A stretch of DNA of 64,000 nucleotides, from NCBI RefSeq assembly GCF_048403405.1, contig NZ_CP183129.1; one strand, given 5' to 3'. The DNA is from Escherichia coli. Its GTDB lineage: Bacteria; Pseudomonadota; Gammaproteobacteria; Enterobacterales; Enterobacteriaceae. Made by a program: the position numbers. Of the stretch, positions 3,001 through 6,000 are shown piece by piece (position 1 is the first letter of the stretch; every line of letters starts with the position of its first letter).

Positions 3001-6000
3001 AACGCAAACTGTGATCGATACTCAACTATGCACTAATTACGTCAAAATTCGTGCCGAAATTGCGCGTTCTGCGCGGAACACGTATACTTTCTGTGTTGAC
3101 ATAATACAGTGTGCTTTGCGGTTACCAGCCGCGGGCGGCTGACGAAACCTCGCTCCGGCGGGGTTTTTTGTTGTGCACAGAAAACCCCCAGCTAGGCTGG
3201 GGGTTCCGGAAAGCTTTCAGCTTTAAGCCAGTTATTAAAACCCCTTTTGATTTGTTAAAACACCTTGCGGTCTGGCAACTGCAAGTGTCAAACAAGAAAT
3301 CGAAAGGGGGTCCCAATGGGGAACGAAAAGAGCTTAGCGCACACCCGATGGAACTGTAAATATCACATAGTTTTTGCGCCAAAATACCGAAGACAGGTGT
3401 TCTACAGAGAGAAGCGTAGAGCAATAGGCAGTATTTTGAGAAAGCTGTGTGAGTGGAAAAGTGTACGGATTCTGGAAGCTGAATGCTGTGCAGATCATAT
3501 CCATATGCTTGTGGAGATCCCGCCCAAAATGAGCGTATCCGGCTTTATGGGATATCTGAAAGGGAAAAGCAGTCTGATGCTTTACGAGCAGTTTGGTGAT
3601 TTGAAATTCAAATACAGGAACAGGGAGTTCTGGTGCAGAGGGTACTACGTCGATACGGTGGGTAAGAACACGGCGAAGATACAGGATTACATAAAGCACC
3701 AGCTTGAAGAGGATAAAATGGGAGAGCAGTTATCGATTCCCTATCCGGGCAGCCCGTTTACGGGCCGTAAGTAACGAAGTTGGATGCAAATGTCAGATCG
3801 TGTGCGCCTGTTAGGGCGCGGCTGGTAAGAGAGCCTTATAGGCGCATTTGAAAAACCTCCGGCTATGCCGGAGGATATTTATTACCTGCAGTACAGTACA
3901 AAACGTGATCAACCCCTCAATTTTCCCTTGCTGAAAAATTTTCCATTGTCTCCCCTGTAAAGCTGTGCTTGTATAAATATTGTTAAACACAAAACCAACA
4001 AGGTCCCCAATGACTACTTCCATGCTCAACGCAAAACTACTACCAACTGCGCCATCCGCCGCAGTGGTCGTCGTGCGTGTGGTGGTGGTCGTCGGCAATG
4101 CGCCGTAGGGACTGGAACAACACACGATTCCAAAACCCCGCCGGCGCAAACCGGGCGGGGTTTTTCGTTTAAGCACCTCCCGGAAAGTCGGCCCAGAAGA
4201 AAAGGACTGGAGCATGGCAAGTTCGGGCACAACATCGACGCGTAAGCGCTTTACCGGCGCAGAATTTATCGTTCATTTCCTGGAACAGCAGGGCATTAAG
4301 ATTGTGACGGGCATTCCGGGCGGTTCTATCCTGCCTGTTTACGATGCCTTAAGCCAAAGCACGCAAATCCGCCATATTCTGGCTCGCCATGAACAGGGCG
4401 CGGGGTTTATCGCTCAGGGAATGGCGCGCACCGACGGTAAACCGGCGGTCTGTATGGCCTGTAGCGGACCGGGGGCGACTAACCTGGTGACCGCCATTGC
4501 CGATGCGCGGCTGGACTCCATCCCGCTGATTTGCATCACTGGTCAGGTTCCCGCCTCAATGATCGGCACTGACGCCTTCCAGGAAGTCGACACCTACGGC
4601 ATCTCTATCCCCATCACCAAACACAACTATCTGGTCAGACATATCGAAGAACTCCCGCAGGTCATGAGCGATGCCTTCCGTATTGCGCAATCAGGCCGCC
4701 CTGGCCCGGTGTGGATAGACATTCCTAAGGATGTGCAAACGGCCGTTTTTGAGATTGAAGCACAGCCCGCGGTGGCAGAAAAAGCCGTCGCGCCCGCCTT
4801 TAGCGAAGAAAGCATTCGTGACGCAGCGGCAATGATTAATGCTGCCAAACGCCCGGTGCTTTATCTGGGCGGTGGTGTGATCAATGCGCCTGCGCGAGTG
4901 CGTGAACTGGCGGAGAAAGCGCAACTGCCTACCACCATGACTTTAATGGCGCTGGGCATGTTGCCAAAAGCGCATCCGCTGTCGCTGGGTATGTTGGGGA
5001 TGCACGGTGTGCGCAGCACCAACTATATTTTGCAGGAGGCGGATCTGCTGATTGTTCTCGGCGCGCGTTTTGATGACCGGGCGATTGGCAAAACCGAGCA
5101 GTTCTGCCCGAATGCCAAAATTATTCATGTCGATATCGACCGCGCAGAGCTGGGTAAAATCAAGCAGCCGCACGTAGCGATTCAGGCGGATGTTGATGAC
5201 GTGCTGGCGCAGCTGATCCCGCAGGTGGAAGCGCAACCGCGTGCAGAGTGGCACCAGTTGGTGGCGGATTTGCAGCGCGAATTCCCGTGTCCAATCCCGA
5301 AAGCGTGCGATCCGTTAAGCCATTACGGCCTGATCAACGCCGTTGCCGCCTGTGTCGATGACAATGCGATTATCACCACCGATGTGGGTCAGCATCAGAT
5401 GTGGACGGCGCAGGCTTATCCGCTCAATCGCCCACGCCAGTGGCTGACCTCCGGCGGGCTGGGCACGATGGGCTTTGGTCTGCCTGCGGCGATTGGCGCG
5501 GCGCTGGCGAACCCGGATCGCAAAGTGTTGTGCTTCTCCGGCGACGGCAGCCTGATGATGAATATTCAGGAGATGGCGACCGCCAGTGAAAATCAGCTGG
5601 ATGTCAAAATCATTCTGATGAACAACGAAGCGCTGGGGCTGGTACATCAGCAACAGAGTCTGTTCTACAAGCAGGGCGTTTTTGCCGCTACCTATCCGGG
5701 AAAAATCAACTTTATGCAGATTGCCGCCGGATTCGGCCTCGAAACCTGTGATTTGAATAACGAAGCCGATCCGCAGGCTGCATTGCAGGAAATCATCAAT
5801 CGCCCTGGTCCGGCGCTGATCCATGTGCGCATTGATGCCGAAGAAAAAGTGTACCCGATGGTGCCGCCAGGTGCGGCGAATACTGAAATGGTGGGGGAAT
5901 AAGCCATGCAAAACACAACTCATGACAACGTAATTCTGGAGCTCACCGTTCGCAACCATCCGGGCGTAATGACCCACGTTTGTGGCCTTTTTGCCCGTCG

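What the first reader, a model, noticed from the sequence alone, without database searches (positions are those of the whole stretch)
3175..3885. IS200 copy inserted between the istR/tisAB SOS locus and the ivbL-ilvBN promoter
A complete-looking IS200 (intact 152-aa TnpA and hairpins at both ends) lies just downstream of the putative IstR-1 terminator and about 125 bp upstream of ivbL. IS200 is more typical of Salmonella and a subset of E. coli lineages than of K-12. Its terminal hairpins act as terminators, so the insertion could insulate or alter ilvBN promoter-region activity, and it is a useful strain marker.
Basis: partly seen in the sequence, partly recalled or inferred. Interest (0 to 1): 0.5.

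Follow-up and report, generated by a model that had tools for sequence, protein, structure and literature searches.

The report
IS200C insertion at the istR terminator
This is an ordinary, intact copy of the small mobile element IS200 sitting just after the terminator of the IstR small RNA, a typical landing site for this element, and it most likely leaves the neighbouring ilvBN promoter untouched.

Summary

- **Transposase:** tnpA (3316-3774) encodes a 152-aa Y1/HUH protein.
- **Structure:** the left-end terminator hairpin, the stem-loop that hides the ribosome-binding site and the right-end hairpin are all present.
- **Position:** it sits 3 nt after the IstR 3' end and 126 bp before the ivbL ATG.
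- **Insertion:** removing it restores natural empty alleles exactly, with no target duplication.
- **Frequency:** 9 of 5,426 complete E. coli genomes carry IS200 at this nucleotide. These come from at least two, probably three, independent insertions. About 38% of the genomes hold a full-length IS200 somewhere.
- **Why here:** every E. coli copy sampled, and 75 of 96 left junctions from diverse bacteria, abut a hairpin plus T-tract like an intrinsic terminator. Controls gave 0.9-11%.
- **Effect on ilvBN:** the element lies about 100 bp upstream of the inferred ilvB start, beyond the CRP-like site and the part of the promoter that is invariant in three aligned alleles. A large effect on ilvBN is therefore unlikely, but this was not tested.

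The element is already known and already annotated at this locus in RefSeq. Interest is low. The hot-spot behaviour means that presence alone is an imperfect strain marker.

The parts
3173..3883 (+). Complete IS200C element, 711 bp, no terminal inverted repeats and no target duplication
   Evidence: The insert is delimited against empty alleles. The ends GTGCACAG...ATATTTATT are shared by eight other E. coli sites and by full-length Yersinia pestis copies aligned from position 1 to 711. Removing the element restores natural alleles exactly.
3183..3205 (.). Left-end perfect hairpin AACCCCCAGC-TAG-GCTGGGGGTT. This is the element's bidirectional terminator and presumed TnpA-binding subterminal hairpin.
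   Evidence: It corresponds to nt 12-34 of IS200 in Ellis et al. 2015 (PMC4513863). On the - strand it is followed by TTTTCTG.
3183..3306 (+). Rfam STnc490 match, covering the left-end hairpin and the tnpA 5'UTR structure
   Evidence: 143.4 bits (gathering score 56), E = 1.1e-30, full model 1-124.
3241..3309 (+). [quoted passage not shown]
   Evidence: RNA fold (z = -4.9 for 3130-3330). It matches nt 69-138 of IS200 in PMC4513863. Base 3302 is G here but A in the other genomes occupied at this locus.
3235..3324 (-). [quoted passage not shown]
   Evidence: Placed only by analogy with Salmonella IS200 (PMC4513863). Not tested here.
3316..3774 (+). tnpA, a 152-aa Y1 HUH transposase (H61-I62-H63; C-terminal Tyr125)
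   Evidence: The nucleotide sequence is identical to the CDS annotated WP_000526135.1 'IS200C family transposase' in NZ_CP128875.1.
3856..3874 (.). Right-end subterminal hairpin CCTCCGGC-TAT-GCCGGAGG. It is preceded by GAAAAA and followed by ATATTTATT, the right terminus.
   Evidence: It is terminator-like on both strands, with a stronger T-run (TTTTTC) on the - strand.
3144..3172 (+). Target site: the istR intrinsic terminator (hairpin 3144-3167) and T-tract ending TTGTT. The left end abuts it.
3040..3169 (+). istR (IstR-2/IstR-1 small RNA), intact
   Evidence: 147.5 bits, gathering score 45. K-12 annotation.
3884..4009 (+). ilvBN promoter region, intact and displaced 711 bp from istR. The best CRP-like site is 3904-3919, the inferred -10 is TATAAA at 3972-3977, and the inferred start is about 3981-3985.
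   Evidence: The -10 and start site are inferred from the sequence and from a 188-nt leader length recalled from the literature. They are not experimental data for this strain.
4010..4108 (+). ivbL leader peptide, followed by the attenuator terminator (about 4134-4170)

Best explanation
Window 3173-3883 is an intact IS200C, a member of the IS200 group of the IS200/IS605 family.

**How it arrived (inferred from the family mechanism).** These elements move as single-stranded DNA ('peel and paste'), catalysed by the Y1 HUH transposase TnpA. This copy integrated immediately 3' of the T-tract of the istR intrinsic terminator (...GGGGTTTTTTGTT^) without duplicating target DNA. Its tnpA strand is the same strand as istR and ilvBN, which is the lagging-strand template.

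**Why this site (shown).** IS200-group elements land with their left end against a hairpin plus T-tract. The flank consensus is T at -5, -2 and -1. This architecture also resembles the element's own right end (A-run, hairpin, ATATTTATT). The istR terminator is therefore a recurrent target and has been hit at least twice independently in E. coli.

**What it does once inserted (inferred).** The element is largely self-silencing. The left-end hairpin blocks incoming transcription. The 5'UTR stem-loop, the antisense RNA art200 and Hfq repress TnpA translation. The right-end hairpin terminates transcription entering from the ilvB side.

**Effect on neighbours (inferred).** The IstR terminator, the ilvB CRP-like site, the core promoter, ivbL and the attenuator are all intact. 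The most likely effect on tisAB/istR and ilvBN expression is small or none.
For: **Identity and completeness**
- establish the RNA and protein family matches.
- Ends are fixed and insertion is precise.
- Only 1 nt differs over 1,651 bp from six RefSeq genomes annotated IS200C at this locus.

**Target rule**
- All nine sampled E. coli copies on other sites (eight distinct sites) lie 32-73 bp after the stop codon of a co-oriented gene. In each, the left end abuts a hairpin plus T-run.
- Of 96 distinct left junctions from Yersinia, Vibrio, Edwardsiella, Mailhella, Bacillota and others, 75 are terminator-like.
- Controls: 44 of 5,000 random positions, 221 of 2,000 T-run-matched positions and 104 of 1,256 non-ORF T-tract ends.
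- Head-to-tail tandem copies in Y. pestis have a left end directly on a right end.

**Independent hits**
- CNR85I8 and 1296KP carry an IS that differs at 30 of 711 nt, while the flanks differ at 5 of 940.
- With the IS removed, their allele is 100% identical over 1,340 bp to at least 15 unoccupied genomes.
- The window and PCN033 alleles also have near-identical unoccupied counterparts.

**Strand**
- GC skew on the + strand is +0.049 across the window.

**Silencing anatomy**
- PMC4513863 and PMC5435999, matched to the folds.

**Promoter left intact**
- Across the window, T-HYM1 and K-12, the alignment is invariant from window position 3897 to ivbL. K-12 differs at three positions in 3884-3896.
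- The CRP-like site is at 3904-3919.
- No outward promoter-like site was found.
Against: - No expression data exist for this strain, so 'no effect on ilvBN' is an inference.
- The right-end hairpin has only a weak T-tail on the + strand (ATATTTATT). Some tnpA transcription could therefore read into the ilvB promoter region.
- I could not retrieve the primary ilvB footprinting or IHF papers. An upstream element beyond -100 cannot be excluded.
- The terminator association could partly reflect purifying selection, because insertions elsewhere are lost, rather than target choice.
- The difference between IS variants at the same site could in principle come from gene conversion between IS copies.
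Confidence: 0.85

Rival explanations
1. The insertion changes ilvBN expression. It could do so through read-through from tnpA into ivbL-ilvBN, by moving upstream DNA needed for CRP- or IHF-dependent activation, or by uncoupling the ilvB promoter from the SOS-regulated istR/tisAB region.
For: - tnpA has the same orientation as ilvBN, and the right-end terminator is weak on the + strand.
- The insertion lies only about 18 bp upstream of the CRP-like site.
- In Yersinia, an IS1541 between pheL and pheA is thought to disturb attenuation control (PMC3082878).
Against: - The tnpA promoter is described as intrinsically weak (PMC4513863).
- The core promoter, CRP-like site, leader and attenuator are untouched, and the 13 bp next to the junction (3884-3896) vary between the three aligned alleles.
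- No outward promoter-like site was found.
- In the unoccupied allele the istR terminator already separates the two units.
Confidence: 0.12
2. There was one ancestral insertion. Its patchy presence and the 4.2% divergence between IS copies reflect recombination of flanks and gene conversion between IS200 copies, not repeated targeting.
For: - E. coli recombines frequently.
- The junctions are identical in all nine genomes apart from one extra T in PCN033.
- The occupied genomes carry about 10-20 matching places each, including IS copies that could act as conversion donors.
Against: - Three flank haplotypes each have identical or near-identical unoccupied counterparts in many genomes.
- Only 9 of 5,426 genomes are occupied.
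- The general terminator-foot rule predicts repeated hits at exactly this nucleotide.
Confidence: 0.12
3. The link with terminators is a by-product. TnpA recognises only a short T-rich target (TNNTT), and the hairpins appear because selection removes insertions everywhere except behind gene ends.
For: - In IS608 and ISDra2 only a 4-5 nt target is recognised, through base pairing with the left end. This is family knowledge from papers listed.
- T at -5, -2 and -1 is nearly invariant.
Against: - Non-ORF T-tract ends in the same loci carry a terminator-like hairpin in only 8% of cases, against 78% at junctions.
- Orientation is constant, with the left end always on the T-tract side.
- Tandem copies use the hairpin plus T-rich right end as a target.
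Confidence: 0.3
4. The copy is kept because its RNAs (the 5' tnpA-derived small RNA or art200) regulate host genes in trans, as reported in Salmonella.
For: - The 5' region is intact and scores 143 bits against Rfam STnc490.
- Regulatory roles for these RNAs are reported in Salmonella (PMC5435999, PMC12594629).
Against: - Nothing ties such a role to this locus.
- Related genomes show 10-20 matching places each, so this copy is one of several.
- No E. coli targets are known to me.
Confidence: 0.08

Closest known systems
IS200C / IS200 of E. coli and Salmonella enterica (IS200 group, IS200/IS605 family)
   Same: - Size is about 707-711 bp with a single tnpA of 152 aa.
- It has the left-end terminator hairpin, the 5'UTR stem-loop over the ribosome-binding site and a right-end hairpin.
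- There are no inverted repeats and no target duplication.
- The CDS is identical to one that RefSeq annotates as an IS200C family transposase.
   Different: Nothing structural. There is one base change (G3302) in the 5'UTR stem relative to the copies at this locus in sister genomes. An IS200C copy 100% identical to the window's lies at another locus, yfeX-pbp4b in strain CRE389.
IS1541 of Yersinia pestis
   Same: - It is 87% identical over the full length, with the same ends and the same left-end hairpin.
- Its left ends abut a terminator-like hairpin plus T-tract.
- From memory, Odaert et al. 1998 (J Bacteriol) already proposed terminator-like stem-loops as IS1541 hot spots. I could not retrieve that paper.
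   Different: It is 712 bp, has a high copy number and forms tandem head-to-tail arrays. It is a different host and a different sequence variant.
IS608 (Helicobacter pylori) and ISDra2 (Deinococcus radiodurans)
   Same: - The transposase fold family is the same (PDB 2a6m and 2xm3 hits at E = 4e-19 and 2e-16).
- Both have subterminal hairpins, insert 3' of a short target without duplication, and prefer the lagging-strand template.
   Different: - Those elements also carry tnpB and recognise TTAC or TTGAT.
- IS200 has no tnpB.
- Its flank is a T-tract at the foot of a hairpin.

Membership tests
IS200 group, IS200/IS605 family | Encodes a Y1 HUH transposase (Pfam Y1_Tnp) with an HUH motif and a catalytic tyrosine | tested here: met
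   - Pfam PF01797 at 4.4e-38.
- NCBIfam NF033573 at 147.7 bits against a cut-off of 55.
- H61-I62-H63 and Y125 align with conserved residues of PDB 2ec2.
- Equating Y125 with IS608 Y127 rests on my own knowledge.
IS200 group, IS200/IS605 family | About 0.7 kb, tnpA only (no tnpB), no terminal inverted repeats, no target-site duplication | tested here: met
   The insert is 711 bp. It holds a single long ORF on the sense strand. Removing it restores natural alleles exactly.
IS200 group, IS200/IS605 family | Subterminal hairpins at both ends. The left end also carries a terminator hairpin (nt 12-34) and a 5'UTR stem-loop (nt 69-138) that hides the ribosome-binding site. | tested here: met
   Hairpins lie at element nt 11-33 and 684-702, and the stem-loop at nt 69-137. 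Rfam STnc490 scores 143.4 bits. The published layout is in PMC4513863.
IS200C (ISfinder isoform) | Near-identity to the IS200C reference sequence | tested here: inconclusive
   The ISfinder reference was not available. As a proxy, the CDS is identical to RefSeq WP_000526135.1, annotated 'IS200/IS605-like element IS200C family transposase'.
IS200 group, IS200/IS605 family | Transposes through single-stranded DNA; the element is active | not testable with these tools
   The evidence is indirect only. Identical copies sit at different loci in different genomes. The same site has been occupied independently. The orientation matches the lagging-strand template.
istR small RNA (Rfam RF01400), the flanking target | Sequence and structure match above the Rfam gathering score, next to tisB | tested here: met
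   147.5 bits against a gathering score of 45, full length 1-130. tisB is at 2645-2734 on the - strand.

The most novel reading that the evidence does not exclude
IS200-group elements home to intrinsic terminators because TnpA reads the A-run, hairpin and T-tract of a terminator as a mimic of the element's own right end, and cuts after TNNTT at the foot of the T-tract. Under this reading, terminators of sRNA genes such as istR are predictable, recurrent 'safe-harbour' landing pads, and occupancy of a given terminator can arise repeatedly in unrelated lineages. The association itself is partly anticipated: a 2025-26 preprint (10.1101/2025.07.22.666184) reports terminator-like sequences upstream of IS200/IS605 elements, and from memory Odaert et al. 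1998 proposed the same for IS1541. The new part would be the exact junction geometry and the right-end mimicry mechanism.
Probability: 0.3. Interest if true: 0.4.

Novelty: already known. Interest (0 to 1): 0.15.

Why it matters
- **As a locus:** it matters little. It is a silent mobile element parked behind a terminator, already annotated in nine RefSeq genomes.\n- **For typing:** presence at the istR-ivbL spacer marks a tight clade, namely the window together with TUM14771, GN02461, MS 69-1, TUM1226, 4621 and OX030728. The same nucleotide has been hit independently in other backgrounds, so the IS allele or the flank haplotype must be read as well.\n- **More generally:** the data give a clean, quantitative picture of IS200's preference for the 3' foot of intrinsic terminators. 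That preference explains why the element is so rarely mutagenic, and it could guide predictions of where new copies will land.

Tried and rejected
- **ilvB promoter literature.** I looked for primary papers on the ilvB promoter, the CRP footprint and IHF sites. Nothing usable is held. The promoter positions therefore rest on sequence inference and on my memory of Friden et al. 1984 (CRP footprint -44 to -82) and of a 188-nt leader.\n- **IS200/IS1541 target-site literature.** Searches found only the 2025-26 preprint and the pheL-pheA example. Odaert 1998 and Cornelius 2009 are not held.\n- **Outward or hybrid promoter at the right end.** The scan found none, and my own reading found no acceptable -35/-10 spacing. 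Rejected.\n- **Other IS200 copies in the window.** There are none.\n- **Truncation or pseudogenisation.** Rejected: the CDS is full length and the ends match all other copies.\n- **Weak Rfam hits.** Ysr202 (26 bits against a gathering score of 315) and Pseudomonas P6 (22 bits against 50) match only the terminator hairpins. They are not these RNAs.\n- **The 435-aa ORF downstream of ilvN.** NCBIfam found nothing.\n- **Failed calls.** Searches failed because of my frame error (3317 instead of 3316). One search failed on a file name.
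Full report
**1. What is in the sequence**

The neighbourhood reads as follows:

| Feature | Window position | Strand |
|---|---|---|
| emrD | 1181-2371 | - |
| tisB | 2645-2734 | - |
| istR | 3040-3169 | + |
| insert | 3173-3883 | + |
| ivbL | 4010-4108 | + |
| ilvB | 4214-5902 | + |
| ilvN | 5906-6196 | + |

- Rfam finds istR at 3040-3169 (147.5 bits, gathering score 45).
- It finds the IS200 5' region (family STnc490) at 3183-3306 on the + strand (143.4 bits, gathering score 56).
- Aligning the window with two unoccupied alleles, K-12 MG1655 and strain T-HYM1, shows a clean 711-bp insert in GGGGTTTTTT(T)GTT^ACCTGCAG.
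- A 2-nt 'TT' ambiguity at the junction is resolved by eight other E. coli IS200C sites. All begin GTGCACAG and end ATATTTATT. Full-length Yersinia pestis copies also align from position 1 to 711.
- It lies 3 nt after the IstR 3' end given by Rfam and by the K-12 annotation, and 126 bp before the ivbL ATG.

**2. Anatomy**

- **Transposase.** tnpA (3316-3774) encodes 152 aa. It matches Pfam Y1_Tnp at 4.4e-38, NCBIfam transpos_IS200 at 147.7 bits against a cut-off of 55, and solved Y1 transposases including IS608 TnpA and ISDra2 TnpA. The HUH motif (H61-I62-H63) and the C-terminal Tyr125 are present.
- **Left end.** There is a perfect 10-bp hairpin at 3183-3205. A long stem-loop at 3241-3309 buries the Shine-Dalgarno sequence (z = -4.9).
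- **Right end.** An 8-bp hairpin lies at 3856-3874, preceded by GAAAAA and followed by ATATTTATT.
- **Match to the published layout.** This is the arrangement described for IS200: terminator at nt 12-34, 5'UTR stem-loop at nt 69-138, a weak promoter near nt 40, and the antisense RNA art200 (PMC4513863; PMC5435999).
- **A caveat on the Rfam hit.** The STnc490 match is on the sense strand, whereas art200 is described as antisense. I treat the hit as evidence for the conserved 5' structure, not for a particular transcript.
- **No target duplication.** Deleting the element from strain CNR85I8 gives a sequence 100% identical over 1,340 bp to at least 15 unoccupied genomes.

**3. Distribution**

- Nine of 5,426 complete E. 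coli genomes carry an IS200 at this exact place and in this orientation.
- Six of them (TUM14771, GN02461, 4621, MS 69-1, TUM1226, OX030728) differ from the window by one base, A instead of G at 3302 in the 5'UTR stem. They are also 100% identical to the window over 6150-8400, so the window belongs to this clade.
- PCN033 has the same IS variant plus one extra T at the right junction, and a different flank haplotype.
- CNR85I8 and 1296KP carry an IS that differs at 30 of 711 positions (4.2%), while their flanks differ from the window at only 5 of 940.
- Each of the three flank haplotypes has identical or near-identical unoccupied counterparts in many genomes.
- The simplest reading is at least two, probably three, independent insertions at the same nucleotide. 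Gene conversion between IS copies is the alternative and is not excluded.
- IS200 itself is common. 2,063 of 5,426 genomes have a copy covering at least 80% of the element, with up to 35 matching places per genome.

**4. Why this site**

In all nine sampled E. coli copies on other sites (eight distinct sites), the element lies 32-73 bp after the stop codon of a co-oriented upstream gene: yfeX, uhpT, an ail/lom gene, emrB (seen in two genomes), potE, plaP and two hypothetical genes. In each, the left end abuts a hairpin plus T-run.

A scan of one genome per species with the left-end hairpin core returned 120 loci from Yersinia, Vibrio, Edwardsiella, Brenneria, Oxalobacter, Sutterella, Mailhella/Desulfovibrio, Bacillota and others. 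Results for the 96 distinct left junctions, with controls:

| Set | Terminator-like |
|---|---|
| IS200 left junctions | 75 of 96 (78%) |
| Random positions in the same loci | 44 of 5,000 (0.9%) |
| T-run-matched random positions | 221 of 2,000 (11%) |
| Non-ORF T-tract ends away from IS copies | 104 of 1,256 (8%) |

- The flank is G/C-rich up to position -8 and then T-rich. T occurs at -5 in 95% of junctions, at -2 in 98% and at -1 in 79%.
- The element's own right end has the same architecture. In Y. pestis, tandem copies have a left end placed directly on a right end.
- The istR terminator (GAAACCTCGC-TCCG-GCGGGGTTTT-TTGTT) fits the rule.
- The + strand of the window has positive GC skew throughout. 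The tnpA strand is therefore the lagging-strand template, as expected for this family from Ton-Hoang et al. 2010, cited within. This last step is inference.
- The terminator association is not new in outline. A 2025-26 preprint reports terminator-like sequences upstream of ISs, strongest for IS200/IS605. From memory, Odaert et al. 1998 proposed terminator-like stem-loops as IS1541 hot spots.
- The idea that TnpA treats terminators as right-end mimics is my own hypothesis and is untested.

**5. Consequences for the neighbours**

- **IstR.** The hairpin and U-tract are intact, and only sequence from 4 nt beyond the 3' end is changed. The LexA box (2971-2990) and tisAB are about 180 bp or more away.
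- **ilvBN: where the start is.** The -10 (TATAAA, 3972-3977) and a recalled 188-nt leader ending in the attenuator T-run (about 4168-4171) place the start near 3981-3985. The right end of the IS is then at about -98 to -102.
- **ilvBN: the CRP site.** The best CRP-like site is 3904-3919, with 7 of 10 consensus positions and a centre at about -70 to -73.
- **ilvBN: conservation.** Across the window, T-HYM1 and K-12, every base from window position 3897 to ivbL is invariant. K-12 differs at three positions in the 13 bp next to the junction, 3884-3896.
- **ilvBN: promoters and read-through.** No promoter-like site points out of the right end. On the + strand the right-end hairpin has only a modest T-tail, so low-level read-through from the weak tnpA promoter is possible.
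- **Conclusion.** A large effect on ilvBN is unlikely but untested.

**6. Verdict**

The element is a standard, intact IS200C, already annotated at this locus in RefSeq. The suggested regulatory significance is not supported by the anatomy. The most useful by-products are the exact ends, the evidence for recurrent independent insertion at one nucleotide, and a quantitative description of the terminator-foot target preference of the IS200 group.

Noticed in passing
window 6449-7756 and 7972-9474: Two ORFs (435 and 500 aa) lie downstream of ilvN, where K-12 has uhpA directly after ilvN. RefSeq genomes annotate two 'hypothetical protein' genes within the 6150-8400 stretch searched, which ends inside the second ORF. 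The segment is present at 80% coverage or more in 1,043 of 5,426 genomes. NCBIfam finds no family for the 435-aa protein.
   Followed up: partly
window 20927-30601: A very long ORF of 3,224 aa on the + strand, possibly a giant repeat or adhesin-type protein. Not examined.
   Followed up: no
window 32001-40000: G+C falls to 40.4% here against 49.2% for the whole window. This suggests a horizontally acquired segment.
   Followed up: no
window 3302: This base is G in the window but A in the eight other occupied genomes compared base by base (the ninth, 1296KP, was not separately aligned). It turns a U-A pair into U-G in the stem that hides the tnpA ribosome-binding site. An IS200C copy 100% identical to the window's exists at the yfeX-pbp4b site of strain CRE389.
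   Followed up: partly
L005 (PCN033), right junction of the IS: There is one extra T between the IS right end and ACCTGCAG. It is absent from unoccupied alleles with an otherwise identical flank. It is either a 712-bp element, as in Y. pestis, or a slippage event.
   Followed up: partly
L111, L112, L114 (Yersinia pestis NCTC5923): Head-to-tail tandem IS1541 copies with no spacer. The left end of one copy abuts the right end of the next.
   Followed up: partly
window 4134-4170: The ivbL attenuator terminator (GGGGTTTTTCGTT) also fits the IS200 target pattern. An insertion there would separate ivbL from ilvB, as IS1541 does between pheL and pheA in Yersinia. It is not occupied here.
   Followed up: no
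loci L006-L109: The 17-nt core of the IS200 left-end hairpin (CCCCAGCTAGGCTGGGG) is conserved exactly in elements from very distant bacteria, including Bacillota, Desulfovibrionaceae, Oxalobacter, Vibrio and Saccharibacteria MAGs, even where the rest of the element is only 65-80% identical.
   Followed up: partly
window 3851-3944 (- strand): A weak Rfam match to Yersinia sRNA Ysr202 (26 bits, far below the gathering score of 315) covers mainly the IS right-end hairpin. This hints that the Yersinia sRNA ends in an IS1541 right end used as a terminator.
   Followed up: no
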